Assembly (NCBI GenBank): GCA_051362555.1
Contig: CM120640.1
Span: 67,806,788-67,870,787 of the forward strand
Origin: Lingula anatina
Lineage: Eukaryota > Animalia > Brachiopoda
Length of the DNA: 64,000 nt
Reading direction: 5' to 3'
Shown here: piece by piece, positions 7,150-61,476 of the stretch
Layout of the letters: every line of letters begins with the position of its first letter
Position numbering within the stretch: the stretch's first letter is position 1
Notes under the pieces: model-generated
Told to the model about the DNA's origin: nothing
Database searches by the model: none
What the model saw: only the letters and a program-made list of their open reading frames with translations
Program-made: the position numbers and the translations under genes

Positions 7150-8900
7150 TACATTTCTGGTGCCAACCGCTCTACATATTGGAGGTAGGCATTTGCACTA
7201 GCCTTTGCTAGGATCTCTTTCCAAGGCTGCCCCTTGATGACAGAAATACTACTTGTCCCAGATGAGCAGGAGTAGATGCAGCCTCACCTTCTCTTGAAAA
7301 GTATGGGCTGTCCGTTTCCAGTAGCAGTCTATTGAGAGACATGTTATACACTGTTTTGTAGGCAGTGGATACATTATCACTTTTAAACTGATGCACTGCT
7401 CCTGCTATTCCGAAGTAAGTGTTCGGAAAGTGCTTTAACCATGATCCTACTAAGTCCATGGATCCAAGAAAACAATGGCAATGGATCAGCCTTTCCTGAC
7501 CAACAGCTGGCACCAACCTAAGAACATTGAGAATAATTCTCCATGCTGTGTCATCAGCATCACTTGAATTTCTCAATCCATGGCCATGAAGAATCGAGAC
7601 TTTTCCTGGCTGAAGAAAGGATAGGGCAATCTCCAAGTTTTGAATCTGCTCATCCCACTTCGAGACTTTACAAGTCATATCAAATCCAACCTCTCCCAAT
7701 GCAGCCACTTCTGGCTTGGCCACAACCCTTTGGAATCTGGCTCACTCTTCAGTCTTTACCTGATGCTTGGGGTGCATGCCCACAGCCACCACCCCTCCAA
7801 TTTCCTGAATGCCTTTGCATATATCAGGACTTGGGTATATTTCAGGGTCACAATAGACTGCAGTAAACCCTTCGATTTTAACCCCGCAGCTATCGACGGG
7901 AACAGCCTGAATGATTTCTTGTAGCCCAGTTGTCCTAGGTAACTTCAAAAATTTCTGAGCTTTGTCCAGATGACAATGGGCATCAAATGCTTCCTGAGTT
8001 TGGGACAATTACCTTACCTCCTCTTCATCAGGTTCAAACAGCTGTTTCAGCTGTTCCTGTAACTCCTTATCAATCATAGAGAAGAGGTCTAACAACACTC
8101 TCCAGTTAAGAAGACGTAACATGAGGCTTTCCTCAGTGAAGGGCAGATGGCAATCAAACGCATATTCAGCTGTATCTGGGCCTTTGCACCAGGACAGCAA
8201 ACATCCCTTTTCTCTCTCTTGACATGGCGCTTTCGCCGCTGGTGAACTGGAAGCCATTCTCTTCCCATGATGATAACTCCCATGACCTGGCCATGCTCAG
8301 ATCTACGGGGCGATGGTGAGCTACGTCGTTTGTACGGCGAACTTCTCCTCTGCCTTCTCCAATCTTTATGGTAAGGAGAGCCTTTCCTCCCCCTGGATGA
8401 TCCACTTTTATCTTCTGCTGGCCGTACTGCCGTTGATGTCACCTTACGTCTAGGTTCAGACATATGCACCTTGTACTTAGTGTGAGAAGCAACTCCTTTG
8501 AGTGCCCAGCCTCCACCTCCATTCTGACATCTGACCTTTGAGATTCTTTAATCTCAGCAGTCATGTCAGATGTACCAGCTGACTCTTCAGTTTTTGTAAT
8601 TCTTTGAGGCGTCACTCCTGACAACAATGCCTCCTCCTCATCAGAGTCAAGCTCCATGTCCTCACCCATAATCACCCTTTGGTGAGTTATGGTAGGATCC
8701 TCTTTGAGCCTAATGTCCTTTGACATTTCCAGGCCTGCTTATGCAGTACTAGGCCCTTGTTTAGCAGGTAATTGAATGTGAATAACATTTTCACATATCC
8801 ACTCATGCCGCTAAAAACCGAATTCTTTCAGGTCTCGAGCCACCTGCTTTCTCCAGTTGTTATTTTTCTTGCCTTTCTGACCCTTGAGGATAGCCTTTGT
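7150..8900 (-). pseudogene. Zinc-finger-like/TatD nuclease multidomain pseudogene, copy 1
   Basis: TatD motifs FDAHCHLD, VGMHPK, LGEVGFD, ILH, HCHCF and LLETDSPYF lie in one frame with stops at 8009 and 7742. Upstream fragments WRKQVARDLKEFGF*RHEWICEN, KDIRLKEDPTIT, CLLSWC...CHLP and NWRVLLDL match copy 2. Frameshifts are present. Confidence 0.85.
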
Positions 8901-9420
8901 TTGCTGTTGTTCCGCTCATTCCTTCAAACAGTTGATCCAAAAGTGTATGGTCACCATCTGAAACCAACTTGACAAAGGGTGTGAGGATGGACCTTGCATT
9001 AAGTATGTAATTTTGCTCTGGTTGTATTGTCTCTGGCTTCAAGAGACATGTCTTCATATGCTTCCAAAGTGATGATTTCAAATAAAATCAGGGCTAATTT
9101 CCATGGTTTATTCGCTGGGCAACAACCAGCTCGCATTCACCCTCTGTAATTACCTTTGTGTTTTGGAGAATTGCCTTTATTTTGGACCTTCAAAAAAATT
9201 TTCTTTCTTTCTATGGACTTTGGTGGAAGAAGGAGAGCCCTCTTGATATCTTCCTCTGGGCACAAGTGTAGTGAGTAGATATTTTTGATTTATTACAAGA
9301 TTTACAGTAGGCACAGTAATCTAACTTTTTGTAATTTCGCTTTCCGTCTGGAGCCTTCTCATAGATTGGGACACGTACGTTTTCAAGATGCTGCCATAAA
9401 AGTGTGTCAAACAAGTTCTT
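8900..9420 (-). pseudogene. Fragment of a Crypton-like (tyrosine-recombinase-associated) transposon protein
   Basis: Frameshifted pieces KRNYKKLDYCAYCKS..SKISTH, VQNKGN..NTKVITEGECELVV and KSSLWKHMKTC resemble the N-terminal Cys/His region of metazoan integrase-like transposon proteins as I recall them. No recombinase domain is visible. Confidence 0.5.
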
Positions 9421-10368
9421 GTTGTCCTCACCGTTTGGCTCACAATCTGTACTGTTGTCATTTTATTCCTGATCTGCATCACTTACAAATTGTGTCTCTT
9501 TGTTCTTTACTTTTAACTAAACTGTATAAACATATATAAACCCAAACCTAATAATTCTCTAATTATAATAATAATGATAATAAACTCTGGTCTAAAAGTT
9601 GACAAAGTATTTATTAAACAGATACATTTGTAATTATCTTAGTGTAGCAAACATAATATTTTTAATAGAAATTTTAAATATTTGTTATATGAGGTTTACA
9701 AGTTAAACAAGGCAGCAAAGTCACATCTTCAAAATGCCAAAATGTAAACAAGAGATAACCGTGCTGAAACTTTGTTGAAATTTAATGATTTCTTACAATT
9801 AAACATGTTGGTGATGAAAGCAAATACGTATTTGACATCTGTTCCTTAAAGGAAAAAACACTTTAAGCACAAATTTTAACTTTGAAAAGTACCAAAACCT
9901 CTTCTCTAATTACATGTCATTGGTCACAAATTAAAAAAAAATATATTATCTCCATATGGCCCCACCTATATATGCCATCTTGTATCAGCTTACAACTCTT
10001 CCCCCTCAAATTTTTTAAGCTACTGCACCTACATGAAGGGAATGGAATTTACTGCCACTTTTACTACATAAAATATGCTCTACTAGAGAACTCGAGGTTT
10101 ATCTATTAATAAGACATTTTGTAAATAAAATTTTTATAAATGACTTTTAAAATTGAGTGAAGGAGTGACATTTCTAACTTTTACATTGCTTGATTTAATA
10201 AGTTTATTTTATTTTCTTTTAGTAGCCTCATTTCTTTCTTGTTGTATTATAAAGTCTACTGAACAAATTTGGATTTAAGATTCAAATTGTTTATCATTAT
10301 TATGATCTCTAAAAAATCTATTTCTCTTTTACCTACTTATGCTCATGTAGATGAATATTTATTAGCAT

Positions 10369-14490: not shown

Positions 14491-14644
14491 TAGGGAATAC
14501 ATTTCCTGAAGGGCTGCCTAAACTACAAACTGATACTAACACTTTTGGAAACAAACAAACGAAAAACCTTATAGGTAAAAAATATGTGAATTATAAATTC
14601 GGCCTTTTTGCCCCATTGCTGGGGCAATACGCCTCGCACCACGG

Positions 14645-15050
14645 TGTAGGGGTCCATGTTCCACCCTACCCAGGTTCTTCTAATATTTTACCTGTCACTG
14701 ATGCATGGGAGAGGGAATATAACTACAAACTCACATCTTCAGTTCCAAGTCTAAAAGTCCTTTATTAAGTCCCAGCCTTCAGCCTTTATACACATTATCT
14801 CCAGAGAATCTATCTGCATGCCACAGTGGCAGCAACTCATTTAAATACTAATTGCAATGCAATAGATAACAATTGAGGGCTTCTACTTTTAAGTTATATC
14901 AGTTCTACTTATCAGGTATACCTATACAGAGGATGATAAATATTCATTCAAGACTGAAGTAAGGTGAATGATAATATGCTGACTGATTACAAGTATAAAC
15001 ATAATATGTAAATGAGTGATTTCATCACATGCATTTAGTGGACCTTAACA
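14645..15050 (-). repeat. 3' LTR
   Basis: Direct repeat of 16778-17183. One mismatch was found by eye (14838 C vs 16971 T). Confidence 0.95.
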
Positions 15051-15704: not shown

Positions 15705-16790
15705 TTATCCTTTAACTGAATAAAAAAAATCATTTCTTAATTTGCAGTGTGGAAGAAGTGTCCATTTTAGTTTCTTTGCCATAAACTTTCTCTGCACCTT
15801 TTTGTTGTCTCTGTTAAAGTCCCATTTTACACCTGTCCATTCTTTTGCATTCTCATAAACATTTTCTGTGTCTGAACCTTGTTTGTCTTCATTCTCTACA
15901 ACTTTAAGTACCTCCTCACTTGCACTTTGTTCTTCATTCTCTTCAACTTCTTCCTCACCTGCACTTTGTTCCATCTCTACTTCAGTAAGTTTGTCTCCGT
16001 CTGTATTTTTGAAATTAGAAAAATCCATTTCCATCCATTCATCATTAAGTCCTTCATCAGCATTCTTTACATAATCCGTTACAGCATTTTCATCTACATC
16101 ATGTTTCTCCACATACTTTGGGTCATCACCATCATCAAGTCCTTTATCCGTATTCTTTACATCATCTGTTAAAGCCTTTTCAACTACATCAGGATTCTCA
16201 TAATACTTCAGTTCACCCATTTTACTCTCACTTCCGATTAATCCGTTGTCATCATCATCATCATCAGTTTTCAGTCCTAGCTCTTGTTCTTGTTCTTTTT
16301 CGACATACCCTTCACATTTCTCCCCTTTCTTGAAATCAGTTCTCTTTTCTACCTCTGGATCATTTACAATCATAATGTCCTTGCTGAGTTCATTCCCATC
16401 ATTTTCCTCACCTATATCATGTTCCTTCACAAACTCCATCATACATTCATCTTCTTTAGCCGTAGTCAGTGTCTCATCATGAGTTCCCTTCTCCATTTCT
16501 AATAATTCATCTACTTTGCCTTGGTTTCTTTCTTTAACTTGTTTCATTTCAGATTCTGCAGTAATGTCATTATTCTGTTGCTGCAAACTGCCATACTGTC
16601 TCTGTAACAAGTCGGCTAGCTTGGACAGGCATTCTACCAGTCTGCCGTTAATATTATAGTCCTTTTCAGAATCCCAGTCATCATCTTCATACACATACTC
16701 ATCTTCAAAGTTGGATCCATAGCTATATCCATAGCTATATCCCTCCCCCGCAGTGACCCTGGTCGAGCTCGCCATTATGTAGGGGTCCAT
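15705..16790 (-). CDS. Acidic low-complexity protein, the sole long ORF of the LTR element
   Basis: Uninterrupted 361-aa ORF. The likely start MASSTRV overlaps the PBS. It is D/E/K-rich with internal repeats and has no protease, RT, integrase or CCHC motif. Confidence 0.6.
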   Translation of the reverse strand: MDPYIMASSTRVTAGEGYSYGYSYGSNFEDEYVYEDDDWDSEKDYNINGRLVECLSKLADLLQRQYGSLQQQNNDITAESEMKQVKERNQGKVDELLEMEKGTHDETLTTAKEDECMMEFVKEHDIGEENDGNELSKDIMIVNDPEVEKRTDFKKGEKCEGYVEKEQEQELGLKTDDDDDDNGLIGSESKMGELKYYENPDVVEKALTDDVKNTDKGLDDGDDPKYVEKHDVDENAVTDYVKNADEGLNDEWMEMDFSNFKNTDGDKLTEVEMEQSAGEEEVEENEEQSASEEVLKVVENEDKQGSDTENVYENAKEWTGVKWDFNRDNKKVQRKFMAKKLKWTLLPHCKLRNDFFYSVKG

Positions 16791-17183
16791 GTTCCACCCT
16801 ACCCAGGTTCTTCTAATATTTTACCTGTCACTGATGCATGGGAGAGGGAATATAACTACAAACTCACATCTTCAGTTCCAAGTCTAAAAGTCCTTTATTA
16901 AGTCCCAGCCTTCAGCCTTTATACACATTATCTCCAGAGAATCTATCTGCATGCCACAGTGGCAGCAACTTATTTAAATACTAATTGCAATGCAATAGAT
17001 AACAATTGAGGGCTTCTACTTTTAAGTTATATCAGTTCTACTTATCAGGTATACCTATACAGAGGATGATAAATATTCATTCAAGACTGAAGTAAGGTGA
17101 ATGATAATATGCTGACTGATTACAAGTATAAACATAATATGTAAATGAGTGATTTCATCACATGCATTTAGTGGACCTTAACA
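16778..17183 (-). repeat. 5' LTR
   Basis: Direct repeat of 14645-15050 with imperfect inverted ends TGTAGGGGTCCA and TGGACCTTAACA. Confidence 0.95.
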
Positions 17184-17719: not shown

Positions 17720-18404
17720 AGGCCCCGTCACATTTATTCGGAATCAGCAGGAATCGAGCAGAACCAGCTGGGTTGAAGAATTTTCAAAATTCGTACTACA
17801 TTTGGGAAGAAATTTCAAATTGACCTTAATTCTTGTAAGAATGCCGTTGGAATACCCAGAATGGGCTTGAATCTGCCTGGAATGATTCGTGCACATTTCG
17901 GCTGTATTAGCTCTTAAATGCAGCTCGAAAATAGTTGGAAAACTAGGAATATCGATAATGCTGTCAGAATGCAGTCAAAATATGTAGAATACACTTCAAA
18001 TGCTGTACGAGTATTGCTGGCTGAAATAGGATTTTGGTAACCATCGAGATGCATTCGAGTTGCATTCCGGCTCATTCTAGCAGGATTTGAAGTGTCTTGC
18101 CATTTCTATACAGTTTTCCCTTGAACGTGATCAGAATGTTTCTAATGCTGTCGAAATGCCCTAAGAATATTTAGAATGCACTCATAGTGCAGTTAGAATA
18201 CATTTTAGAATGCCATTCTCAACTTGGAATGCACTTTAAAAGTTTTTTAGCATGAGCAAAACATTCGGGACGGCCACAAGAATGGGTAATAATATTTGGA
18301 ATGCATTTAGAAATTTAGAATGCTCTTCGAGAATCCAGGAACGTACATAGAATTGTCTTTCCTACGGCATTCTTGCACATTCCGCCTTTAGTGTGACGGG
18401 TCCT
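17720..18404. mobile_element. PIF/Harbinger-type MITE
   Basis: Imperfect TIRs AGGCCCCGTCACA and TGTGACGGGTCCT, TAA duplicated at 17717-17719 and 18405-18407, and internal GAAT/ATTC-rich repeats. Confidence 0.85.
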
Positions 18405-20082
18405 TAACACAGGCTAACGAATGCTTAAACCATGATGAGAGACAAGCCCCTTGCACCCGCGAGCAGCTTATCCAACTGTCTATCTGAGGAGAGAGAAATG
18501 AGATGGCATCATTAGACATGTGTGCCGGCAACCATATGTACTCTGAAACTTGATCACATGTTTTATATAGTAAATTTATAAATCTACTAATCTGACCATG
18601 CTCGTGTAACCGGCTGATAGCGTCTGCAACTGAGTTACTCTCGCCCGGAATAAAGTGCGCCTCCAGTTTGAAGTCGAACCGGGCAGACAGGAGGTATAAT
18701 TGCTCTAATAGGGCAAAGGCGGTAGGGCTAGTCGTAGTCCCATTGTTAATCATATATACGGAGGCAATGTTATCGGAATAGAAGTGTACGTGCTGTCCCT
18801 TCCAAAGCCTTCCCCAGCGTCGCGCGGCTAAGACAATTGTAGCTAACTCCTTAGCGTTAATATGTTGGTCGGCGAACGAAGGGGCGTCGACATCCCAGGC
18901 GTAGTAGAACCAGTCTCCCAAGCAGAAAGCTCCGCCGGCGACCGTACACGCATCTGTGTGTACTTCAACTTCTGGTCTATCGTTCCATATTGTCCTCCTA
19001 CTATTGCACTGAATTTGTGTAGCCCACCAAGCTAGATCGCCGTGGATGGCACGCAACAGACACTTGTGCGATGCGGCTTTAGTCGACGACATAAGGCTGT
19101 ATATCCTCCTCAGGTGAAGTTTTCCCCAGGGGATGACGTTGCTAGCCCAGACCAGGTGCCCGGCTAGTCGCTCTAACTGCTTCCGCGTCGCTCGTTTACG
19201 CTTTAAAAATGTGAATAATAAGTCCTCAAGTTTCGTTAACTTAGTGTGTTCGAGGGATACTTTTCCCGCGCACGAGTCAATTTCAATACCCAAGAAAACT
19301 ATTTTCTGTGTCGGGTCATTCACTTTCTTCCAGTTTATGGCAAAACCCAGCGAGCGGAGCAATTGTACGAGAGTGTTGTATGCTGCTAAACATTCCGCAA
19401 AATCTTTTCCCGCTACAATAAAGTCGTCTAAGTAGGCTACTACAACCGGGAAACCTCTCCTTAACATCATCCGGCGCACAGCCTGAGTGAGTGTATTAAA
19501 AATAGCCGGACTTTTACGTCCACCGAAGGGGAGTCTTAAATCAACAAGGGTGGTAGGTTTGCTTTTTCCAGTAAACGTCCACTGTAGCCCTGTGTATTGG
19601 TGATTGCTTGGATGTAGTTCTACGGAGCGATACGCGTTGGCTAAATCAACTTTTGCAAGGTACCAGTGGGGCTTGATATTACATAATACTTCCTGTACTG
19701 ACTGATAACTCACACTGTCCTTAGTCGCGTAATCATTCACACTGGTTCCTTCCGGTCTGCTACAGTCATGAATTAATCTTATGTTTCCGTCCGGCTTTGG
19801 CACCGCATGGAGTCCACTAATTATACGAGGAGTAGTTTCCGCTATGGCATAATGACCCTCAGCTATACCTTCTAACAGTTTTGCCTCTACTTGTTCCCTC
19901 GCTCTAATAGCTGTAACTGAATTGGGAACGTATGCCCTATCCGGAATAATAGAGTCATCATCTATAATTGAAAAACCATACCGTATCCCGTTAAGAATAT
20001 ATTCACGGTCCGGATCGTCTGCTAGCTCTTGTTCCCACACGTGAACAGCTTTTCTTAGCGTGGAATTGTCCTTATCTACCAC
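18388..20082 (-). CDS. DIRS/Ngaro reverse transcriptase-RNase H
   Basis: VPKPDGNIRLIHD, KVDLANAYR, LPFG and YLDDF, then RNase H motifs HTDAC, HINAKEL, SDN and HFIPGESNSVADAISR. The last codons run into the MITE. Confidence 0.92.
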   Translation of the reverse strand: MVDKDNSTLRKAVHVWEQELADDPDREYILNGIRYGFSIIDDDSIIPDRAYVPNSVTAIRAREQVEAKLLEGIAEGHYAIAETTPRIISGLHAVPKPDGNIRLIHDCSRPEGTSVNDYATKDSVSYQSVQEVLCNIKPHWYLAKVDLANAYRSVELHPSNHQYTGLQWTFTGKSKPTTLVDLRLPFGGRKSPAIFNTLTQAVRRMMLRRGFPVVVAYLDDFIVAGKDFAECLAAYNTLVQLLRSLGFAINWKKVNDPTQKIVFLGIEIDSCAGKVSLEHTKLTKLEDLLFTFLKRKRATRKQLERLAGHLVWASNVIPWGKLHLRRIYSLMSSTKAASHKCLLRAIHGDLAWWATQIQCNSRRTIWNDRPEVEVHTDACTVAGGAFCLGDWFYYAWDVDAPSFADQHINAKELATIVLAARRWGRLWKGQHVHFYSDNIASVYMINNGTTTSPTAFALLEQLYLLSARFDFKLEAHFIPGESNSVADAISRLHEHGQISRFINLLYKTCDQVSEYIWLPAHMSNDAISFLSPQIDSWISCSRVQGACLSSWFKHSLACVKDPSH

Positions 20083-21118
20083 TTTTTTGAATCCGGGACG
20101 TGTTCTGGGGTTGTTTTCTGGGGGTAGGTTTGCTTATGGTCGAAATCCCCGTGGGTGGGCGAGAAACATTTTAAGCAAATGTGAGAATATTTGCATACGC
20201 GGAGACTACAGCCGTTGCGCCCGTTGAATCTCTCGCAGATTGGTCTTGCTGTATTTGGGTCTACTTTACCGCGCTGGATGAAATTTTGGCCTCTTGGATT
20301 CTGATGTCCTGTGTCCGCTTGTTCTCTCCCCTCTGTAGTAGGAGTTGCATCAGGTATTGGTCATCTTTTCCCCAGTCGCTGTTCTCCCGTGCCTGTTTCT
20401 TCCTGAACTCGTAGTCGAAGTTCACGATACTCTCCCACGAAAACGCCTGTGCGAACGTAGCGATCTTGATGAGATAATCGATGTGCTCATCCGTCGTGCT
20501 CTCCCCGGCATTGCGCATTTCTCTGAGGATCCGTAGCGACCCCTCCATGTACTGGGCCAGTGACAGTTTGGCCAGTGGGATTTTGGTATCCTTAACCTTT
20601 ATTTGAAAGGGGCCCATGTCTACTGTATTGGAGTTGGAAGTTTCTGCTGCGAGTGTCACAAAGTCTCTAACATCTCGGAAGATACCCGACTTCCCCTTTC
20701 TTGCCTCCCCCACTTTAAGGCACATACCTGTAAAATCCTGTGAGGTAGCTTTCTCCTGTTCCGCTGCGGCGGAGGTCATCAAACCCAGGATCTCATCTAC
20801 AGTCAGGGCACCTCCGTTTGCCAGTCTCTGTCGAACGTCGACTTCGGTGCTCTTTGGCTGGACGTCTGCTACGCTTGGGGTGGTCGCGCTTGGGGCACTG
20901 CTTTCTGCACTCGAGTTTAACTCTTTCACAGCGTCCTCTAGAAGAAAGAGCTGGGCTGGGGGGAGATCTTCGCCATACAGCCTTTCAATTCTCTCTGGGG
21001 TGAGCTTCTTTAATGATTTAGCGGAATCGAATCCTTTCTCCATTAAGGCAGCTAGTGTCTCTGTCGAAAGTCCGTTCTCTTCTTTCCATACGTGAGGATC
21101 GAATTCTTCTTCTGCCAT
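20076..21118 (-). pseudogene. DIRS/Ngaro gag-like ORF1 with a frameshift before its zinc fingers
   Basis: MAEEEFDP...FSWESIVNFDYEFRKKQARENSDW. The Cys/His tail ICERFNGRNGCSLRVCKYSHICLKCFSPTH (about 20240-20150) is in a different frame and ends at TAG 20076. Confidence 0.8.
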
Positions 21119-23969: not shown

Positions 23970-24752
23970 CATATTCCACACCTTAACTAAAAATGAACCA
24001 TGGACCTAGTACAATGGTTCCAAATTTCCATCAAGCAAAAGTGTTATTTCTTGATATTCAAAATAAATTACATTTACTTTGTATATGCACATCTCTACTG
24101 CCCCTTAGCATTATTTTTTATATTTTAACTAGATATGAATATAAGGGTGAAACAAGATTTGGATCAGTTTGATTACTTTTCAATCCCCAAACAAGAACAG
24201 TCCACATACCCCCATATCCTGAAATTCAAAATACGAATGAATGAAGAAAAATGAAAAAGCATGAAGAAGAATGAACCATTTAGTTAAAAGCTTAGTTTTC
24301 TATAAACAGAAAAGCTTTAATGCCTTTGCACTCAAACACACTAAAAAAGAAAAGATAAAGGTATAGAAAAAACAGATGCACCTAACATGCATTATTAAAT
24401 TGCTGCTGCATGTCAAAAATGAAAATGAACATCAGCCAAGAATGTAGAAATATTGACAGAAAAAAATGCTCTTTAATACTTCAATACTATTTTTAATACT
24501 TAATTACTTTGTGTTACTATTGTTTGGACCACCACTGTTTAATTTTTCATTAAATAAATAACACAATAGATCTTCAGTAGTCAATGTCCATTAATAATTA
24601 CATATAAACATACACATGTATATGATATGTCAGTTTAAGAAAATACTGACACAATCCTGAAACATTCATATTCATTTTTCGTGATGAACTGTCCTCATCA
24701 ACCATTTCATGGACTATTATTGCTGGAAAGAACATATCAAGACTGCATTTAA

Positions 24753-28167: not shown

Positions 28168-28210
<43 letters not shown>

Positions 28211-45635: not shown

Positions 45636-45704
<69 letters not shown>

Positions 45705-49680: not shown

Positions 49681-50063
49681 TAAGTATTAATATCCGATGG
49701 GCCATTGCTACTACCACTGACATCTGTTATTAGTACTACTTACCTAAAGCTACGATTGCTAGTTTGCTACCAAGTGCCGTACTGCAGATATCGAGTAATG
49801 CAATGTTATGAAATTGTTCCACAGCAAGAGTATAATTTTTGTTATTTGAAAAAGCTGTTTGTGAAGATTCTAGTTAAGTTAGAGCAGAAAATGCGTTCTA
49901 GTTACGTGAATATCAATGTTCGGTAATATTCAAATTAAATTCAGCAAATACCAATTAAAGGGAAAAAATTAGTTTGAGATGACAATAATTCGAGCAGTAA
50001 AGCAAGTCTTCTGTTAATGCACATACTAAAATAAAAAATATAAATGTTTCAGACTAGAAAAAT

Positions 50064-52699
50064 ATGTGTAGTTTCAGAGGCAAATTGTGTTGTCACTCAG
50101 ATAAATTCCTTGTTCTTGCCAGGTCTGCCTTCACCATTGCAAGGTTCATGGCCAATAAAAGTGGAACCATACAAGGTCTACTCAAATCCCCGGCAGTGCC
50201 ACTGACACTGTGCAGACGGTGCCTGGCATTATGGGGCTTCAATAAACCTGATGAATGGAAGAAAACTGTCATGGATGCTGAAAAACTTGTGGGATATTCC
50301 ACATCACTCCTCAGTCTCCGCTGTATATTCAGTGATGAACTTGCCAATGTAGCTATGCAAGTAGGAAAACTAGTGGGAACAAAACACCCTCTGTTACATA
50401 CAGCAAGGTAATGCATTTTATTAATTGACTAATTCACTGACAACAAGGAGAGAAATTTATGGCTGAAAATTAGTTAGGGTCTTGCGTAGTAAAACATTGA
50501 AGATATGGATGAATAGCTTTTCCTTTCAAGCAGAAGTCCGTCAATTTGTGTGTGTATGTGTGTGTCCAAGCATGCGTGATCCCAGTATTTTTTTACCTTA
50601 GTTGAAGAAAAGCATATTTTCATGTCAGCATGTTATACCCACTGTTACAGAACATTTATATGGGATGACAAGCAGGGCCCTCAGACCAGAGGGTTGATCA
50701 TTCTACTATTGTCCAAGGCTGCTGGACCTTCCAACCATCCTGATAAGATGCCTGATTTTGATCGTGAAATGGTCTGTGGTATATATCAGAGGTATTGTCA
50801 GTCGTTAATGATTTTTTTCTGCAATGAAGGAGGAATTCTGCATTTTATATATTTCAGTGTATAGATCTCTACCTCTGTATTTTAGGAGGGGATATCATTT
50901 ACTAATTCCCATTTGGTATCCATTAAAGACTGTTAGAGATGTCCTTTGAGGAACAAAACAAATTGTTCAGTTATATTTGGAAATATTCAAGTTATGTAAT
51001 GTTAATCAATTTTTATTTACTTTCAGCCAAAGAAATCTTGCAGAAATTGCAGAAATGATATATGCTGCCAACCTCATTCACAAAGGAGTGGTCAATCTTG
51101 CTGAAGTCAAGCCAGCAGATGGCATGATGAAAGACATGGAGTTTGGAAACAAGATGTCTGTTTTAAGTGGAGATTTCTTCTTAGCCAATGCCTCAACAGC
51201 TCTTGCTGACTTACAAAATACCAAGGTTAGTTATGACAGTACACAACTCAAAAGTTCAATATTAATGGATTTTTATTGTTAGTATCAGTCATCATGGTGA
51301 TGTGTTATATCTGTTTCAATATTTTGAACATTTTTTCTCCAAGAAATTATGTCATAAAAACAAATTGAAACATTCTCAGTGGAAACATTTTATTTATGCC
51401 AGAAATTATTGAATTAAAATTCCTTCTGTGTCAACTACATATATTTTTTCTGTAGGTTGTAGAAATAATTGCCAGTGCCATTGGTGATTTAATGCAAGCA
51501 GAATTCACAGGACTTACAGATAAAAGTGGTTGCCCAGTCCTGAAAACAACCACAACAATGGACAATTGGTATGAACAGACATTTCTCTCTGCTGGGAGTC
51601 TGGTTGCAAAAAGTTGTAAGGCAGCCATGGAACTTGCCAAACACTCACAAGATGTGCAAGAAAAAGCTTTTAACTTTGGGAAATATTTGACATTTGCTAG
51701 GCAGGTAAGGGGAACTTTTTTGGAATAAATTCCTTGTTTATGTGGACCTTCATGTATAAGGGTAAATCCATTAGCCTCTGTCCACATGATTCCACAGAAA
51801 GAAATTGATTGTATAGCATCTTGTATTTATCATGCACTTCACATTGATTGCATAGCAGCATTTTTCTGTGCATTCTCATAGCTGATATTCTGATGTTTTT
51901 TTCACGTTAATTAATGAATATTAATTTATGAATATAAAATTGCTCTGAACGTGTTGCTTTATTTCCAGTTAAATGAAGATCTCCAACCGTACATAACTTA
52001 GCAGCATTTTCTGTGCATTTGCATTATTATTATCAATGCATCCCAGATTTTATTGCACTTTGAACAGCATTATATTATTTTCTCTTTTGATGGATCATAA
52101 CTTGCAAGTAATTTATGAAGATAAAATTGCTCTGAACATGTTGCTTCATTTCCAGTTAAATGAAGATCTTCAGCCATACATAAGTGAAGATGGCGGCAGT
52201 GCTCCTTTTAACCCAACATCTGCTCCATCAGTTCTCTATGCCATGGGGGGAGACCAGGATAGGGTGGATTTTCTCAATAATTGTGCAAAAACTACGAGTG
52301 GAAAGGTGCTTCATTACAAGTCCTTACGGCTGATTTTAAATAATTTGACAAGACCACATACAGACAAAATATTCCAATACATAAGTTCCATAGTTTTCGC
52401 ATTTAAAAATGTTGACTTTTTTAAATTGTTTCACACTCTGCAGGCTAATCAAACACTCATTTTAAATGTATAACTAGTGCATGCATTAAATATATTTTAT
52501 TTAAGTGGTAAATGAGAATGTTAGTGTTTAATTTCAGATGCAGGCACTTAAGCTGATCTCAAAGAGCAAGGCTCTGGAAGAAACGAAGCGTCTTTGTAGG
52601 GAACATGGACAGAAGGCAGTGGAGGCTATAAAAGACTTTCCCATCTCAGATACAAGGACTGTATTACAGAAAATGGCTCAAGTGACAACTAATGTATGA
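50064..52699 (+). CDS. PDSS2: All-trans-polyprenyl-diphosphate synthase subunit 2 (6 coding exons)
   Basis: Exons 50064-50407, 50651-50791, 51027-51225, 51456-51704, 52156-52305 and 52538-52699 are in phase. Motifs [59 protein letters not shown] (no DDxxD, as in subunit 2) and [16 protein letters not shown] are present. Confidence 0.93.
51922..52183. repeat. 187-bp-period duplication of the PDSS2 exon 5 acceptor and exon start
   Basis: 51922-51996 matches 52109-52183 with a few mismatches. Confidence 0.9.
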
Positions 52700-53259
52700 G
52701 TTTCACCTTTTACAAAAACATCTCTTGCAACTTCTTCTTGTAGTCCTTCAACAAAGAGATGGTGATTGCAGGGTTCTCAGTTTTTCTTTCTAAGATATTT
52801 TGTACAAAAATTTTTCAGCATGTATATAATGATCTCTTTTTTCATCCATAAAACTTCATGAACACTAAATTTCAGTGATTTCATGTTGAGATTGTTCTAA
52901 AACATAAATTATTGGGCTGAAAGTGAAAAGATTACTGTTCATGGATGAGCTTTGTCACGTTTTCCATGAGAGGGACTGGCTTACCAATTAAAGTGTAAGG
53001 AGGTTATTATTTTAGTTATGACTTTATCTTCATCATTTATGCAGCAGGTATCACACTGCTTCCACCCAGAACTTTGGTTTGTTAAAGCTTTTTAAGAAAA
53101 TAATCCCTCCCAAAGGTGGTTCATTTGTAGTAGACTAAAGAATATTTGTTAATTTTTCTATCTTCCATGTTAGCTAAATTAAGATCACGTCACATCACAC
53201 ATGTGCTTCATTGGCAGATGTATTCATCCTTGTCTTAATGTGAGATACCTGATGCAAAA

Positions 53260-56200
53260 ACTTGGTATGTTTTTTATTGCAAGATGGTACAGAGCAAGTT
53301 CATGAAAGTTTTTCCTTATAATTTCTGTCACTTCATCACCAAATTCTTTCTTGTTATCTTCTGCAGTTTTCTGTAAAGCAAAAGAACACACACTTGGTGA
53401 CAATTTCACTCCATAAAGATGCACGGTCATTCTATATTTCTTCGGATTTTCATTGAGGTTTTCTGACCAAAGGAATTTCAGAGCATTCCTGTGTTCTGTT
53501 GTCACTTTTACTTGGTTAAACATCTCTGTTATGTCTCCCATTAAAGCGACTCTTTCTGTCCTGATTCTCAGCAACACTCCAACTAGCCATGCTGTCAAGT
53601 CTGGACCCTGTAACAGATGATCATTTAGAGACTTCCCTCTGAACTTTGCAGCACAGTCAAACACAATCCTAATCTTGTCTGGCTTGGCTGGGTTAAACAC
53701 AGGGAAATGCGGCAGGTACCACATTCACTGCTGCTCTTCATTCTCACTGCCTTGTCACTGTTGTTTTAAGTAATGCAAACATGACTGAGGATTATTCCCT
53801 ACATTGATTGAACATCTACCTTGATCAAGAGCAAGTCAACAAGTGAGTCACAGTTAAACAGTTTGATTCTTTAATAAGAACCCATCCAGGTTGGCTCCCC
53901 CTATCTGACGATTTCTGTGTCCACTTCACCGTCTCAAATGAGTTGAAGAATACACCATCAATGACTGACTGACCTATGTTACATTCAAAAATTTCTTCAG
54001 CTGAGTTGAGGATTTCAATGGCCTCTACTTCTGTGAGAAATTTACCTCCTGCAAGCTTCTATTACTTCTAGCCATTTTTGTTTTCTCTGTTTATCACTTC
54101 GTATTCTGGATGGTGCCTTTTCCTTCACTATTTTCATTGCTCATAGGGTGTTGACCTCTGTTGCACTCCTCTTCGTTTTTGGTGTCCTTGGGTCAGTTTT
54201 CCACTTCAGAGTATATTACAGTTCTTTACTCGCACTGTACATTGATGGTATTTGGTCAACTTCCAGTAGAATATTAAGAATATCTGCTGGACCAGGTATG
54301 ATATTTAGACTCTCAAGTCTCTCCATCTTTGCCGTTTGTGGTATTGGGAAAGTTAAAATGCCCTAAATCTTAACTTTTTAAGAAAAAAAATATGAGATAT
54401 TAAATTTTCAGCCATATACCAGTGGCTATTATGACTTGATGCCTCACACATACCATGGTGATGGTTGTCATGAAATTAACAATGTTGCCTGTATACAATA
54501 GGACCTAACATCCTTGGTTTAAGGCTAGATCAAGATGTATTTTTGGTTTCTTAACATGTTTACAAGTTTCATTTCAGTGATAATCCATTAAAATCTTTTG
54601 GATGTTGGTCCTCTACTGTTTATCTGAACAAAAAAGAAAATGTTTTTAAATGTTAATCTAAACAATATACGATTAGGCAAAATAGGAAATTAAATAGAGT
54701 AGCATTTAAGAAATCATAAAAATAATGTTTTGGATTAAATTGTATAATACTTGTAAAATGTGGATTTAACAACGCATTCAGATTCAGACGTCATGACATC
54801 TGGGATGATCCAGCTGATCTGTGGGGATCAACTAAATAGAGAAGAATTTGATCAGAATATAAAGTTAGTCATGTGCTCCGGCCAACACAGAGCTTCACTG
54901 AAAGAGCTTCCCCTAAGTTAGATACGCCGTTAAGTTGGTGTCGAGGCAACTCAAGGCATGGTCCGGTTACGCTGCCACCATGTTACAATGTATGCATACG
55001 ACAGATTGTAGAGGCATACTAGAAGTTATACAGAGCGCGAGAGAGAAGGCACAAGTGCCATTAGAACTCAACATCCGTTGTAAAAAGGTCAAGGTCACTA
55101 CACAGTAAACACAATAGTGTAACACTTTTTTTCTTGGCCTCCCCACTGGCTTTTTGCACTTTTTAAGCCTCATTGGGCTTCTCTCAGGTGTGCTGTTCAA
55201 ATATATAGATTCTTGCAGATGTCTTGCCAAACCAACCTTTTTCCCACGGCCACCACGTAAGCTCCTGCCATGCTTGGTTTGAGCTGATTTCCTAGGTCTG
55301 CCAGGGCCTGCATTTTTTCTTTACCTTCCCACTGGCTTTTTGCACTTTTTAGGCCTCACTGGGCTACTTTCAGGTGTGCTGTTCAAATAAAGTAAAGTGT
55401 AAGAGTGTGATAAAGAATTTAAAACAGTAATAAAGTCCGTACAAGTTACGCAGTGCAACAGATGTCAGCCATTTGAACACAACACAATTTGTTCTGAATG
55501 CCAACCATAAACATTTGACTTGCACATTTGCAATGTGAACATGATTTGTCAATCACCATTAATCAGATTCACTATGACTTACGACATGATCTAGTTGGCT
55601 AACTGGACCTAAAGACTTGATTCAATCCATTCTATCCCAAACTATAGAACTCGATATTAAAAGATTCATAAGTTATACTAGTCTTATTACCCCAAATGTT
55701 TCAATATCTACATTATATGTAGTAGTGGACTTTTCATTATCAGACGCACTGTATAGCAACTATTGCATCTGTCTGTATAAACAGTGAACACAAAGTCATC
55801 GTTACCTTCATAGTGGAGCTCGATTATCATTTTCAACATTTACATACTTCACCGACCTGTTGGCTTTCTGTTGTGGCATTGCCAGTGTACACTGCTCTCT
55901 CTGGTGCTGCTGTCATTGCGGTTGTTTCGATGTAGTCGAACAGCACTTGGGCTCAAAATGTCCCATTCTGTTACATTTGAAGCATCTGACATTTTTAGTT
56001 CTGCAGCAATAATTTCCATAATGTCCAAGGTAACCACACCTGAAGCATTCTACTTTGACGGACAATTTTGTCGATTTCATCCTTTGCTTTTATCTTCCCA
56101 GTTTCTTACGGTTCACAGGACGCTTCTGTTTTACATTGAATGCATTAACACCTGCAACTTCTGATATTTTCAACGCTTGTTTCTCTCTTGTTTCCATGGC

Positions 56201-56748
56201 TAATTCTATGTCTAGTGTGCGTGCTAATGATAAATTTGTGTCTGTCAGTTACTTTGTTCTCAGTTTTCTTTCTCAGAAAGACAATTGTCATCGATTTGAT
56301 CCTTTATTCGTCGATTTGATTCGTCTCAAAATCACATTCTCTAGCTAGGGAGTGCAATCTAGTTACAAACTGCGTGAGTGTTTCAGATCTGCTTTGTCTG
56401 GCCAGGCAAAAAATATGCCAATTGTACAAAATGTTTCTTCTTGGTCTGAAGTAATTGGTAAGCAGATTAACTGCAATGTCAAATGCATTTGCATTTCCTT
56501 CTTGGTTGTCATTAGGGGTTTCTACATGTAGCTATTGAAGATTTCTTGAACCTTGATTCCTGCACAGTGGAGTAGTAGCTGCTTCTACGCAAACAGTGGC
56601 TACGGCGAAGATTTTGAATCTTTTCAGCTATCTCTTCCATCTCGTAGCAATGTTTGATCACTGTGTGGATCAAAACTCTCAATGGATGGTTCATTTATTG
56701 GGCTCAACATTTCCTTCAATTTCTTAGTGGAATCTCTTCGTTATTTCT
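53260..56748 (-). mobile_element. Fragmented BEL/Pao LTR retrotransposon remnant
   Basis: RT fragment [42 protein letters not shown]...[10 protein letters not shown] (53724-53310). Decayed gag-like pieces lie upstream. No LTRs were found and the outer limits are uncertain. Confidence 0.75.
55138..55389. repeat. Direct repeat encoding GRPRK (AT-hook-like) basic peptides on the minus strand
   Basis: cccactggctttttgcacttttta.gcctca.tgggct.ct.tcaggtgtgctgttcaaata occurs at about 55142 and 55328. The translations KPVGRPRKK and GPGRPRKS are visible. Confidence 0.6.
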
Positions 56749-58748
56749 TGGTCCAGTAAGAATAACTTAGGTTAGAAAAAAATGTTAACAACTGAATCTG
56801 GTCCAATATATGTTATGGGGCAATATAATCCAGATAATTTCCCATTGGAATCTACCATTGGCAAAGTGCCAAAATCCAAAATGGCTGCCAATATGCAGAG
56901 GGGGGCTCAATATATGCATATCTTGGGAAACAGAAGACACAAAAAGATATTTTTTCCCTGATCAAAGATGACTTTGCTTGTTAACTGAAATAAACCATTT
57001 TCAAAAATAAAGTATGGGAGGATTTTTCCCTTGTCAAGAATAAAATACAAGATACTTTTTCTTGTTGACTATATGAATATTTTGTACAAACTATGTACAT
57101 GTAAAATATATAATGCAAATATAATAACTGTGCAATATATTACAATAGTGCATTTTTTTTTCAATATATGTAAAAAATAAAAGGCTGTACTTTATAATTT
57201 TGATAAAGGACCAGTTTACTCTTTTTTTAACACCGTTGGTGACTGTAATGTCGAGTATATGCCTAACCTCAACACCCCTAGCATCTGCTAAAATTTCTGC
57301 TGTCTTAAACAACAAATATGGTGTTGAAGCCCTGATGTTTTGGGCATGGAAATATGGTACATCTAATTCCAAGAGTAATTTACACTCCGGGACAGCTTTG
57401 ACCGCCTCCAACTAGGATTTGTTGTAAGTTTTCACCAGCCTGGTGAAGCCAAAGTATGTGTTGTAATAAACAGGCAGCCACATCTCCATGAGCTTGTTCC
57501 CCGTAAAACAGTGGAAATTGATGGGCTGATGCTCTGGGATGTTATTCCTTTGTAGGATTGATAACAGATGCCTGATGGCATACACAGAGTCACCACTACC
57601 CATTCCAAGGCAATGCAACACTAACACCTTGCTGTCAATTTCTGAGGGCAGTAGATCATTGAGCAGATCTTCCTGATCCTGCCAGACATGGGAGGACTCT
57701 GAAAAATCAAGACCAACCTCTCCGATGGCGCTGACATGGGAATCTTGAACCAACGTCCTGAAGGCTATGAGATTTTGCTCCCGCAAAGCAGGGGTTTGGG
57801 AGGCCTTTTTCGGGTGAAAGCCTATAGCTACATGCATGTTCTCCAACTTATTTAACAAGGCACTCCGAGTTGGATCCCTCTCTGGATCACAATACACTGC
57901 TACTGAGCCCACCAGATTAACCTCCTTGCCCTCTGGCACAGGAACTTTCTCCCGCAGATTCTCCAGGGTCCCATTGGACGGCAGATTATAAGCTTAGAGA
58001 GTCCTGTCCAAGTGGAAATGGCTATCAAAAGCCTTGACTCCCATCACTACATCTGCCACTGTTGTCCGTTGGAGACCTGCAGGCACCTTGAAATTGTTGA
58101 GCCATAAATCCCGTTGGGCTGGATTCGTGCATGAAGATAACTTCAACACAGCTCGCCAATGTATAAATGCACCCACAGAGTTGGCTGACTTTAGGGTTAC
58201 TTGCGGGGGCAGAGAGACACCAAGCTCTTGACAGAAGGCTTGCATCGCTTGCCGTTGGGCTTCGCCAATCCCCCTGATATTTTTAAGGTTGAATTTGTCG
58301 CCTGATGCTGATATAAAATCGCATAGGCTTTGTAGAGGTTTATTGATACCAAAAATGAGCAAGGTAGCCCACTCCAAAGCTGTCACCCTGAGAGCCACGA
58401 TCTCAGGGACGATACTCAAACCCTCGTCAAAGATATCAGGTATGTGTGTTATGACATGGACCTTGACTGCACCCCTTTCAATATTGGGGTTACTACATCC
58501 AGGGACTTGGCCCCGTATGCACAAAACATCTTAAGTGTATTTTTTTAAGAATTTCCTTAAGTGATCACCCTTAACATAAGTGGTATGCACAAAGCATCTT
58601 AAGATGAGAATTTCCCAAAATATCTCCTTAACTTTAAGGTACCTCATTGGGTCTCTTAAGTGGAAATTTTGTCCTTAGATTCCGTGACTGTACAACACAG
58701 TGGCATTCATTTGTGCTAGTCAAAGCTGTGCAGCAACATTATTTCTCT

Positions 58749-59126
58749 ATGACTCTTATTATTGCTGTTTATCGTGAAGAATCGGATGAACTGGAAAGGG
58801 CAGTCGCAAGACCAAGAATATTTCGGGACCACGAAAATCCTTTGGATTTTTACCCAGATCATGAGATTTACCAGCAATTTCGTTTTGATAGAGCGGGGAT
58901 ACTTTTCATTACGGATCTTCTGGCAGAGGATATTGAACCACCCACTAACAGAAGCCACGCAATTCCTGCCTTACTACAGATTTTCATTACCCTAAGGTTC
59001 TATGCCTGTGGGAGCTTTCAGCAAGTTGTTGCAGATACAATTAGAATACATCAGAGTACTGCTTGTCGAATCATTTACAGGGTTACAAATGCTCTCCTAA
59101 GACATATCAACAAATTTGTGAATTGA
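58749..59126 (+). pseudogene. Harbinger (HARBI1-like) transposase N-terminal fragment
   Basis: RPRIFRD...FRFDR...TNRSHAIPALLQIFITLRFYACGSFQQVVAD...QSTACRII. It ends before the DDE domain. Confidence 0.88.
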
Positions 59127-59646
59127 AATGAATGAATTGAAAGCGAATATTTGCATGGGTCTCCAACCAAATACATTTGTAATTTGTCATTCTGTTAAGG
59201 GATATCTAAAGTGAAAATTTTTGAGTGGGCACTTTTTATGACATGTTGCTTATGAAATCCCCAAAAACCACCTGATAACACGGAATCTCACGCATCAATG
59301 CTTATACAATTAACATAGGTATTTAATATGTGCATACGTGGGGTCAATAGTGAAATTAATAATTAATATTAATATTATGAATTACATGCCACAATTTTTC
59401 ATCACAGATAACACTTAAAAATGTAATTATGTCACTGGATTATTATTATTAGTGTTGGGTCTGGGGATTGGATGACACGCCTCTTTTTCTGTCAGAGTAT
59501 GAAGAATACTAGGCCTACACAAGAAGTTACAACTTCTTGGCCTACACGATTGATATCTCAACTCTTTTAATAATAACTGATAGGCCAATAGGCTATTAGC
59601 AAATGTAGCCTATAATGTGGACAAATAAAGCATTGACGTTTCATTC

Positions 59647-59943
59647 ACTGGTTTTCCTCAGTTCCTTTTTGTAATCGATGATGTCCTTTTTTGCACTTGA
59701 AAGGAGGTTGTCCCACTTCTTTTTGACACTTTCAAGGTCTCTCTTCATATCAGGATTGTGCTGGTTTACACCATTCATTACTTTGGTCCATGCATCTTTT
59801 TTGGCTTGTGCTGTGATCTTAGATATTAGAGAATCTCAATTAGAGAATCGTCCCCTGAGTGTGTGTTTCTGCTTTAAAAATTCCTCAACAAGTACCTCTT
59901 TCTCCTCACAACTCCAATTGGGCCCTCTTTTCTTATCTGCCAT
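59647..59943 (-). pseudogene. Harbinger Myb/SANT-like accessory protein fragment
   Basis: MADKKRGPNWSCEEKEVLVEE...AKKDAWTKVMNGVN...VKKKWDNL, with one internal stop. Confidence 0.82.
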
Positions 59944-61476
59944 GTTTAAAGTACATACAACACAGTGTATAAGTTTAATACACACCAATGTGCTTGCTCA
60001 TATCCAAGTAAAGGATTCCTTCAAACATGAATTCCCCAGTGTGAGCTATTGTAGCAGGTAATTCTGTTGGTCAATGCACAGGCTAAACATAGCTCAACAC
60101 ATAAGAGAAATCCTACAGAGTTGAGGAAATTCCTATTATTTGAGAAAATTCTTGGCTTAGGAAATTTTTAAGGTACTTTGTGCATACCACTTAAGGCGTT
60201 TCCTCAGCTAAGAATTTTCTTATGAAGTTAAGGAGAATTTTTCACTTAAGATAAGGATTTTTTGTGCATGCGGGGCCTGACATTTTGTCATTTTTGGTCC
60301 AACCTTAGCCACTTTTAGGTTAGGCTCCCCCACAGACTCAATCAGAGACTCTTGTTTCTGAGATTCCCCAGATGCAGCAACAGTCCCTGGCTTCTGTACA
60401 GACTGACCTGACTTACAATTTTGACGATTTGGGCTTTCTTTTCTTACTTCTGCTTTTTCCGGATTGGGATTTCTCCCCCGTACTTACAGATTCAGAAAAG
60501 GGGTTCTTTCCGGTTTGGGATACTTGCCCAACTGAATGGGCTTTCTCCCCCGTAATAGGAAAAGAAGGGAAGTAGAGGCTCATAAGTGATGGGATTGGCC
60601 TTTTATCCTGCTTTCCGGTTTGGGATACTTGCCCAACTGAATGGGCTTTCTCCCCTATACTGGCAGACCCTTGTTTTCCGGCTTGGGATACTGGTCCAAT
60701 TAAATGGGTTTTCTCCCCCTTACAAACAAAGACAGAAGCAGGAGAGGGGGTGGTAAGTTTGCGGCAATGCACGCCAAAGCTGCCCGTCTCCTACCCTCCA
60801 TGGAAAACACAAGGCATGGGGACTTTTACAAAGTAGACTCATGGGGCTTAGGGCTCCCTTTGGCAGCAGATCCATCTGAGGATCCAAGCAATTCCGAAGA
60901 ATTGCAAGGCTCCCCAGAATAGACCTCCCCCTCCAGGATGTCCACCTTCATGGCCTCTGCTGATGATGTTGTAGGAATTGGTGTGGAATTCCCCCCTCCC
61001 CCAGACACCACAAAAGTGGTTTGGGTAATATTGGGGTCAGTTCCCAACCTTATATCCCTGACTGGTCCCGAGAAAACACTTGGCTCCCCAGTAGGTTTGG
61101 GTTGCACTGGCTTCTTGGATTTCCCAGTCTTAGGATTAGGTGGGAGTTTAGAGATATTTTTTTCCACCCAATTCTTATCGGAAATCCCCTTGGAGAGTAC
61201 TTCAGACGCTAAGTTGCACAGCCACGAGTAGTACTCACCCTTCTTCTTATCTTTGGCCATTTGTATTTTACATAAGTCCACAACGTCTAATACTGACTGT
61301 TGGATCTTGTCAGTATCCCCAGGCAGAGCTTCTATCAGATCCCGGACAAATTCCCCGGGCTGGATGACTGGAAACACACGGTATTTTATCCATGTGGCCA
61401 GCTCATCCACGACTATATTTTTGGACTTGGGATTTTGCTGCTTGGCCATCTGAAATGATAAATGAACACACAGATT

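What the first reader, a model, noticed from the sequence alone, without database searches (positions are those of the whole stretch)
7150..61449. Two diverged copies of a multidomain zinc-finger-TatD nuclease gene, both in transposon context
Seen: loci 7150-8900 and 57200-61449 (both minus strand, no introns evident) share five collinear blocks although they show no obvious DNA similarity. (1) An ungapped W-x4-A-x6-G-x5-W-x3-N block (WRKQVARDLKEFGF*RHEWICEN vs WLCNLASEVLSKGISDKNWVEKN). (2) KDIRLKEDPTIT vs RDIRLGTDPNIT. (3) A C-x4-C...H[LI]P motif. (4) NWRVLLDL vs HWRAVLKL. (5) A TatD barrel with the HxH, GE, two His and ExD metal ligands. Known: host TATDN1-3 are normally low-copy spliced housekeeping nucleases. 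Inference: two decayed paralogues 50 kb apart, each among DNA-transposon remnants, point to a high-copy mobile nuclease family of about 800 aa. It could be transposon cargo or its own element, and I do not know of it being described.
Basis: partly seen in the sequence, partly recalled or inferred. Interest (0 to 1): 0.85.

Follow-up and report, generated by a model that had tools for sequence, protein, structure and literature searches.

The report
Retrotransposon-borne TatD nuclease gene remnants
These are two broken leftovers of a nuclease gene that, in intact relatives from marine invertebrates, is the third gene of a Gypsy-type jumping gene, sitting where a viral envelope gene would; it was likely captured long ago from the host gene TATDN2 and likely acts on RNA, though no activity has been tested.

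Summary
Both loci are decayed copies of one ~800-aa protein: helical N-domain, disordered linker, C2H2-like zinc finger, helical domain, class II TatD barrel. Its intact relatives are multi-copy, and named ones come from bivalves, a gastropod, brachiopods and sea urchins. The carrier is not a DNA transposon. In 24 of 25 related loci with enough upstream DNA the gene follows Ty3/Gypsy pol domains (complete elements: gag, PR-RT-RH-IN-PHD, ORF3), and many loci have a polypurine tract and TG start behind it. Window locus 2 keeps the pol PHD and a splice-acceptor-like site just before the ATG; a Harbinger-like insertion later split it. TatD-bearing elements form one integrase clade (22 against 20 without), TatD co-diverges with integrase (r 0.81), metal ligands are conserved, and the domain is sister to animal TATDN2. 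Best mechanism (inferred): an accessory RNase made from a spliced env-type message. No description was found in 10 literature searches; Repbase and Dfam could not be searched. The rotifer DEDDy ORF3 is the precedent, and this scan already noted the same layout in a sea urchin.

The parts
7148..8915 (-). Locus 1: decayed ORF3 remnant (N-domain from about residue 45, linker, zinc finger, mostly deleted helical domain, TatD barrel, frameshifted C-terminus)
   Evidence: 46% identity over 307 aa to intact P0197; further segments at 8870-8496 and 7247-7155; N-block 8915-8688; Pfam TatD
7241..7993 (-). Locus 1 TatD barrel with HxH, GE, two His and ExD ligands; one in-frame stop inside
57226..58509 (-). 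Locus 2, 3' part of ORF3: rest of zinc finger, helical domain, TatD barrel; two in-frame stops; cut off about 5 codons before the natural end; no polypurine tract or LTR follows
   Evidence: 87% identity over 431 aa to intact P0215
58509..60277 (.). Harbinger-like DNA transposon inserted into the ORF3 zinc finger: 22-nt terminal inverted repeats, Myb/SANT gene (59641-59943, minus), transposase-like fragment (58638-59126, plus; name recalled, no Pfam hit)
   Evidence: TIRs 58509-58530 and 60256-60277, 91%; Myb PF13873 E 7e-17; reads and contigs of other copies skip 58505-60276
60271..61449 (-). Locus 2, 5' part of ORF3: ATG, helical N-domain, DIRL block, low-complexity linker with internal repeats, first zinc-finger Cys; one stop and frameshifts in the linker
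   Evidence: collinear with P0215 residues 1-393
61450..61464 (-). Splice-acceptor-like site (pyrimidine run plus CAG) directly before the ORF3 ATG
   Evidence: the same site precedes ORF3 in 16 of 32 related loci against 39 of 1577 control ATGs
61480..61614 (-). PHD finger and stop codon: C-terminal end of Gypsy pol, about 30 nt before ORF3
   Evidence: 64% identity to the pol PHD of L008, E 4e-15; Pfam PHD E 1.4e-9; contigs of other copies diverge from the window at 61608

Best explanation
Both loci are broken internal fragments of the third gene (ORF3) of a clade of Ty3/Gypsy LTR retrotransposons, a gene that encodes a zinc-finger TatD protein, was likely captured once from a TATDN2-like host gene, is likely made from a spliced env-type message, and likely serves the element as an RNA-degrading nuclease. 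Shown: the gag, pol(PR-RT-RH-IN-PHD), ORF3 order in relatives; one integrase clade; co-divergence of TatD with integrase; kept metal ligands; sister position to TATDN2; transcription of related copies. Inferred: splicing from a donor near the 5' LTR to the acceptor before ORF3. Inferred, and the weakest step (about 0.4): the protein is a soluble two-metal 3' RNase like TATDN2 that clears R-loops or structured RNA arising from the element's own transcription in germ cells, with the zinc finger and basic linker giving nucleic-acid binding. The two window copies are dead; the DNA transposons around them are later or unrelated insertions.
For: Carrier: 24 of 25 loci with at least 3.2 kb upstream of the barrel have pol domains there; full PR-RT-RH-IN-PHD pol plus gag in 7 contigs; polypurine tract plus TG/TA start behind ORF3 in 13 of 31 loci against 43 of 1550 shuffles and 20 loci under a looser rule; paired terminal repeats at 96.8% in L008. 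Clade: 22 TatD-bearing against 20 TatD-less integrases need one change (SH-aLRT 94; shuffled mean 14.3, 0 of 500); all 22 PHD-ending pols lie on contigs with ORF3, against 2 of 110 others. Long association: Mantel r 0.81, 0 of 5000 permutations, 17 elements; 5 of 6 supported integrase splits recur in the TatD tree; dN/dS 0.10 in the one clearly unsaturated pair. Enzyme: HxH 83, GE 85, His 84, His 78 and ExD 84 of 91 long members; TatD fold Z 28.7, rmsd 2.7, 250 aligned. Origin: element TatDs form a clade (33 rows, 94) sister to animal TATDN2 (26 rows, 98), jointly 99 against bacteria; both window copies nest with confirmed Gypsy ORF3s (97). Splicing: acceptor 16 of 32 against 39 of 1577; GTRAGT within 400 nt of the LTR start in 9 of 15 against 541 of 3000 shuffles. 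Not an envelope: no hydrophobic segment above 1.7 in 12 proteins, while other Gypsy elements of the same assembly carry baculovirus-F env in this slot. Expression: RNA reads mostly under 95% alike cover ORF3, nearly all in one direction in run X15, and lack the Harbinger insert. TATDN2 activity: PMC10711561 section 23.
Against: No LTR, polypurine tract, gag or RT survives at either window locus; locus 1 has no pol remnant and is assigned by homology only. No element with both LTRs and target-site duplication was seen: contigs are short or circularly permuted. L069 has 3.9 kb upstream without pol. No spliced read was listed, and reads also cover the PHD. Both trees are quick trees without bootstrap, key supports are 94, TATDN1 and TATDN3 are absent from the TatD tree, and TatD-less controls come from two assemblies. 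Counts include near-identical copies. The ORF3 N-part has no counterpart in 27 TATDN2 proteins, yet TATDN2 needs its N-terminus for R-loop binding, so the substrate may differ. Some members have lost ligands (e.g. P0217). No activity is measured.
Confidence: 0.85

Rival explanations
1. Same Gypsy ORF3, but a counter-defence nuclease: it degrades host small RNAs or other silencing intermediates aimed at the element.
For: A separate message and start codon suit a diffusible accessory factor; ORF3 evolves about 2.7 times faster than integrase (mean tree distance 2.73 against 1.02); a silencing role was raised for rotifer DEDDy ORF3s (PMC5408684 passages).
Against: No direct data. Faster change than integrase is usual for accessory genes. 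piRNA 3' ends are methylated and protein-bound (recalled), a poor exonuclease substrate.
Confidence: 0.25
2. Same Gypsy ORF3, but a DNA-acting enzyme (AP endonuclease or 3' ssDNA exonuclease) that trims or repairs the cDNA or the integration gap.
For: TATDN1, TATDN3 and the three E. coli paralogues, including class II YcfH, are AP endonucleases (PMC10085689 abstract and passages); YcfH is the best solved match; TATDN2 nicks catenated DNA.
Against: The nearest relative TATDN2 has little DNase and only very weak AP activity; TATDN2 was not among the PDB matches, which favours YcfH; Gypsy elements without ORF3 exist in the same assemblies.
Confidence: 0.2
3. One reading: cargo of a DNA transposon, or a nuclease element of its own.
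For: DNA-transposon-like remnants flank both loci; L069 lacks pol upstream.
Against: 0 of 72 related loci match the five neighbouring transposon-like stretches; the Harbinger lies inside ORF3 and is absent from other copies; L069 still has a polypurine tract plus TG.
Confidence: 0.03
4. Processed pseudogenes or expanded paralogues of host TATDN2.
For: Databases name many members 'putative deoxyribonuclease TATDN2'; sister relation to TATDN2.
Against: True mollusc TATDN2 falls in the host clade, apart from the family; the zinc-finger module is missing from 27 of 27 TATDN2 proteins; pol linkage.
Confidence: 0.02

Closest known systems
Juno and Vesta LTR retrotransposons of bdelloid rotifers with a DEDDy 3'-5' exonuclease ORF3 (PMC5408684, abstract and passages seen)
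   Same: Gypsy-type element; non-envelope enzymatic ORF3 behind pol; intact catalytic residues; 3' exonuclease class; function untested.
   Different: TIM-barrel TatD, not DEDDy; fused to a zinc finger, two helical domains and a long linker (700-1100 aa); pol ends in PHD; one old clade co-diverging with integrase across several phyla, against repeated recent acquisitions in rotifers.
env-carrying Ty3/gypsy errantiviruses (PMC13524379, passages seen)
   Same: Third ORF in the same slot; env-type splice signals (that env is spliced is stated for ORF3s in PMC5408684).
   Different: No strongly hydrophobic segment and no fusion-protein domain; soluble nuclease fold. The words PHD, nuclease and hydrolase do not occur in that paper.
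Animal TATDN2 (PMC10085689 passages; PMC10711561 abstract and section 23; PMC12709183 passages)
   Same: Class II HxH TatD barrel behind a long disordered region; sister clade; all ligands kept.
   Different: Intronless, multi-copy, inside a retrotransposon; extra zinc-finger and helical modules; about 30-36% identity to the basal members.
MolGy and PolGy-type Gypsy clades of molluscs and annelids (PMC6238403, PMC8556966, passages seen)
   Same: Same hosts and superfamily; this clade may well be one of them.
   Different: Defined on RT/RNase H only; neither main text holds the words PHD, ORF or nuclease. Assignment was not tested; their supplements with sequences were not read.

Membership tests
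Ty3/Gypsy LTR retrotransposon (intact relatives) | gag followed by pol with order PR-RT-RH-IN | tested here: met
   Pfam on L008, L009, L010, L013, L051, L052, L054
Ty3/Gypsy LTR retrotransposon (intact relatives) | Polypurine tract abutting a TG-starting 3' LTR | tested here: met
   13 of 31 against 43 of 1550 shuffles; 20 loci under a looser rule
Ty3/Gypsy LTR retrotransposon (intact relatives) | Two LTRs, primer-binding site and target-site duplication | tested here: inconclusive
   216-nt terminal repeat at 96.8% in L008 only; other contigs short or circularly permuted; PBS and TSD not established
Ty3/Gypsy LTR retrotransposon (window copies) | Element landmarks at the locus itself | tested here: inconclusive
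   Locus 2 keeps the pol PHD and acceptor; locus 1 keeps none; no PPT or LTR at either; both nest among confirmed ORF3s
Named Gypsy clade (MolGy, Cigr-1, CsRN1 and others) | RT/RNase H placement with reference elements | not testable with these tools
   No reference set (Repbase, GyDB) available
TatD nucleases, class II | TIM barrel with HxH, Glu, two His, Asp | tested here: met
   class definition from PMC10085689
TatD nucleases, class II | Metal-dependent nuclease activity | not testable with these tools
   needs an assay
Host TATDN2 orthologues | Falls inside the TATDN2 clade | tested here: not met
   Sister clade, not nested (quick tree, TATDN1/3 missing)
Envelope (env) ORF3 | Transmembrane anchor and fusion-protein domain | tested here: not met
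   Maximum hydropathy 1.15-1.68 in 12 proteins; only TatD found by Pfam
DNA-transposon cargo | Shared transposase and inverted termini around copies | tested here: not met
   0 of 72 loci match the neighbouring transposon-like stretches; 24 of 25 have pol

The most novel reading that the evidence does not exclude
A Gypsy lineage older than the split of protostomes and deuterostomes captured the ancestor of TATDN2, fused it to a zinc-finger accessory gene in the env slot, and still uses it as an active RNase to clear R-loops or defeat RNA-based silencing in the germ line: a retrotransposon-encoded genome-maintenance or counter-defence enzyme whose many copies are filed in databases as host TATDN2 or even as bacterial TatD.
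Probability: 0.35. Interest if true: 0.8.

Novelty: new variant of a known kind. Interest (0 to 1): 0.6.

Why it matters
It names a widespread, old Gypsy clade by an accessory enzyme not found in the literature searched, and makes the open question of what non-envelope ORF3s do testable with a well-studied fold. It bears on TATDN2, which protects germ cells in fish (PMC12709183, passages). It also corrects annotation: copies are listed as host TATDN2 or YcfH-like in RefSeq and as TatD of bacterial symbiont genomes, which would inflate gene-family counts in molluscs and brachiopods. The two window copies themselves are ordinary dead fragments.

Tried and rejected
No genome is held for the window, so copies could not be counted directly. 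Viral contigs gave 2 weak TatD matches (22-24% identity), not followed up; BFVD gave one TatD-like match at E 5e-10 and nothing for the other domains. The ESM Atlas gave no usable hit for the zinc-finger/helical part or the N-domain. P0229 is a repeat artefact. My first polypurine pattern was too strict and found 1 locus; my first ExD pattern (54 of 91) was too strict and was redone. I had labelled P0430 as family; it is TATDN2. No RNA holder was listed in the index; raw-read runs were laid instead. No joint at the acceptor was listed (45 loose ends not shown). The careful integrase tree did not finish; the quick tree is reported. Literature: of 10 searches, six required TatD or TATDN2 (with transposon and Repbase; gypsy and retrotransposon; LTR; LTR retrotransposon; retroelement) or ranked it; their listings showed no paper on such an element, and the one checked in text (PMC6962438) only labels a TATDN2 gene in a Hox cluster. 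sought context. Subscription journals, Repbase Reports and Dfam are not covered. The names Crypton-like and Academ-like for flanking fragments are recalled and had no Pfam hit.
Full report
Observation. Six-frame translation shows all five blocks on the minus strand at both loci, with no DNA similarity between them. Both barrels match Pfam TatD, and tblastx links them at E 3e-17. The window is animal DNA with spliced Dopey and polyprenyl synthetase genes; no genome is held.

The family. The locus-2 frame, read with X at stops, found 72 proteins, about 50 of them sharing the zinc-finger, helical and TatD parts. Further searches gave 104, 84 and 115 hits. Named members come from bivalves, a gastropod, sea urchins and Lingula. 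Clusters at 90% identity hold 17-52 members; the Dreissena members listed lie on 7 different chromosome-sized contigs. All five blocks align in order in intact proteins. A model of one (811 aa, mean pLDDT 71) shows a confident helical N-domain, a disordered linker, a zinc-finger/helical domain and the barrel. Nearest intact proteins are two Lingula anatina sequences: P0215, 87% identical to locus 2, and P0197, 46% to locus 1, so the host is probably a lingulid brachiopod (inference).

State of the copies. P0215 is collinear with 61449-60271 and 58509-57226; the gap is a 1.77-kb element with 22-nt inverted termini and a Myb/SANT gene. RNA reads (8 in X12, 1 in X18, 5 in X15 over two neighbouring joints) and DNA contigs of other copies skip it. 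Locus 1 lacks its first 45 or so residues and most of the helical domain; contigs of other copies hold extra sequence at 8136-8142. Both have stops and frameshifts, and neither has a polypurine tract or LTR.

The carrier. Related loci show three same-strand ORFs: gag (HhH, PNMA, CCHC), pol (PR-RT-RH-IN-PHD) and the TatD ORF. Of 72 loci with an ORF3 match, 25 have at least 3.2 kb upstream of the barrel and 24 of these have pol domains; 13 of the 47 shorter loci have them too; none of the 72 matches the five DNA-transposon-like stretches of the window. A polypurine tract with TG/TA start follows ORF3 in 13 of 31 loci against 43 of 1550 shuffles. In the window, the PHD at 61614-61498 matches the pol PHD at 64% and stops about 30 nt before the ORF3 ATG, as in intact elements. 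Many of these contigs are filed under bacterial symbiont genomes; I read them as mis-binned animal DNA (inference from gag-pol content and splice signals).

One old clade. I fetched most integrase-bearing contigs of two such assemblies as controls. Of 132 integrase loci, 22 end in PHD and all 22 contigs carry ORF3; 2 of the other 110 do. A quick tree of 106 (26 dropped as too short) needs one change between 22 TatD-bearing and 20 TatD-less elements (SH-aLRT 94; 64 contigs too short to score, 5 of them inside the clade); the PHD subclade has 99. TatD and integrase distances correlate (r 0.81, 0 of 5000 permutations, 17 elements after dropping one near-duplicate), 5 of 6 supported integrase splits recur, and the one clearly unsaturated pair gives dN/dS 0.10. 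Near-copies and few assemblies limit these counts.

The enzyme and its origin. Among 91 long members, 78-85 keep each metal-ligand motif and 88 the zinc finger. The barrel is class II by the HxH rule of PMC10085689 (passages); best solved matches are YcfH-type (E 5e-21) ahead of TATDN3 (1e-10) and TATDN1 (3e-7), with Z 26-29 to all TatDs. In a 74-row quick tree rooted on bacteria (2 candidates dropped for lack of the motif), 33 element-type TatDs form a clade (94) sister to 26 animal TATDN2 rows (98; jointly 99). The two window copies each pair with a different Lingula protein inside a subclade of confirmed Gypsy ORF3s (97). TATDN1 and TATDN3 were not available for the tree. The zinc-finger module is absent from 27 of 27 TATDN2 proteins and weakly resembles zinc-finger ORF3s of neighbouring clades.

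How it likely works. An acceptor-like site precedes the first long ATG after pol in 16 of 32 loci (39 of 1577 control ATGs) and in window locus 2; a GTRAGT donor lies within 400 nt of the LTR start in 9 of 15 loci (18% of shuffles). This points to a spliced env-type message, but no junction read was seen. Related copies are transcribed at low level (80, 78 and 235 reads laid; mostly under 95% alike; one direction in X15). The protein lacks membrane segments. Human TATDN2 degrades the RNA of R-loops and hairpins from the 3' end and barely cuts DNA (PMC10711561, abstract and section 23), and medaka Tatdn2 protects germ cells (PMC12709183, passages). I therefore favour an accessory RNase that clears R-loops or structured RNA during the element's germ-line transcription (about 0.4), over counter-silencing (0.25) or cDNA repair (0.2). 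All three are untested.

Comparison and novelty. Enzymatic non-env ORF3s are known from rotifer Juno and Vesta elements (DEDDy exonuclease, GDSL esterase; PMC5408684, passages; PMC6431247, passages). Searches tying TatD or TATDN2 to retrotransposons listed no paper on such an element. Surveys of mollusc, annelid and env-bearing Gypsy elements do not hold the words PHD or nuclease in their main texts (PMC6238403, PMC8556966, PMC8220671, PMC13524379; passages); their supplements were not read, and Repbase and Dfam could not be checked, so the clade may be catalogued without this domain being named. Earlier notes of this scan reached the same reading for a sea-urchin element and its splice acceptor, and report TatD-like ORF3 fusions in a flatworm; I saw them after forming my reading and do not count them as evidence.

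Verdict. A real feature: two dead ORF3 fragments of a TatD-carrying Ty3/Gypsy clade. New variant of a known kind; interest 0.6.

Noticed in passing
L132, L141, L186, L187, L201, L219, L205 (ORF after pol): Neighbouring Gypsy clades without TatD carry other non-env ORF3s: C2H2 zinc fingers plus low-complexity tails, one with a BTB domain. Two match the TatD-ORF3 zinc finger weakly (E about 1e-3 at Z 1000), hinting that TatD was fused onto an existing zinc-finger ORF3.
   Followed up: partly
L173:1342-3837, L223:6439-8865: Gypsy elements with baculovirus-F env in the same slot, in the same assembly.
   Followed up: partly
G001, G002: Two genomes filed as bacterial symbionts hold 122 and 22 integrase matches and, in G001, about 20 ORF3-type TatDs; most look like animal retrotransposons binned in by mistake (inferred).
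   Followed up: partly
L004:322-900: An NXPE/SGNH-like domain (PF24536, E 1e-21) lies just upstream of the integrase in one TatD element; several pols have long inserts between RNase H and integrase.
   Followed up: no
P0217 (1102 aa, oyster): A family member with a duplicated zinc-finger/helical module and a TatD barrel that lacks most metal ligands, in a cluster of 3 full-length members.
   Followed up: no
L009, L010, L015, L052, L054, L003 gag: gag begins with a helix-hairpin-helix motif and holds a PNMA-like capsid.
   Followed up: no
window 18388-21211 (-): Intact-looking DIRS-type gag and RT/RNase H ORFs (316 and 581 aa; Pfam RVT_1; type recalled).
   Followed up: no
window 14645-15050 and 16778-17183: 406-nt direct repeat at 99.8% around a 371-aa acidic ORF (15705-16820), like a young LTR-bounded insertion into a DUF4218 transposon remnant.
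   Followed up: no
window 8930-9460 (-) and 61700-62600 (-): Decayed fragments recalled as Crypton-like and Academ-like; no Pfam hit.
   Followed up: partly
window about 24700-43100 (-) and 50050-52500 (+): Spliced host genes: Dopey/DOP1 and a polyprenyl synthetase.
   Followed up: partly
window 9716-9769: A short very high-copy, transcribed repeat (depth over 1000 times its flanks in DNA runs).
   Followed up: no
window 4433-5893 (+), 53224-53724 (-), 55900-56500 (-): LINE RT tail, BEL/Pao-like RT fragment and a decayed gag with zinc knuckle (class names recalled).
   Followed up: no
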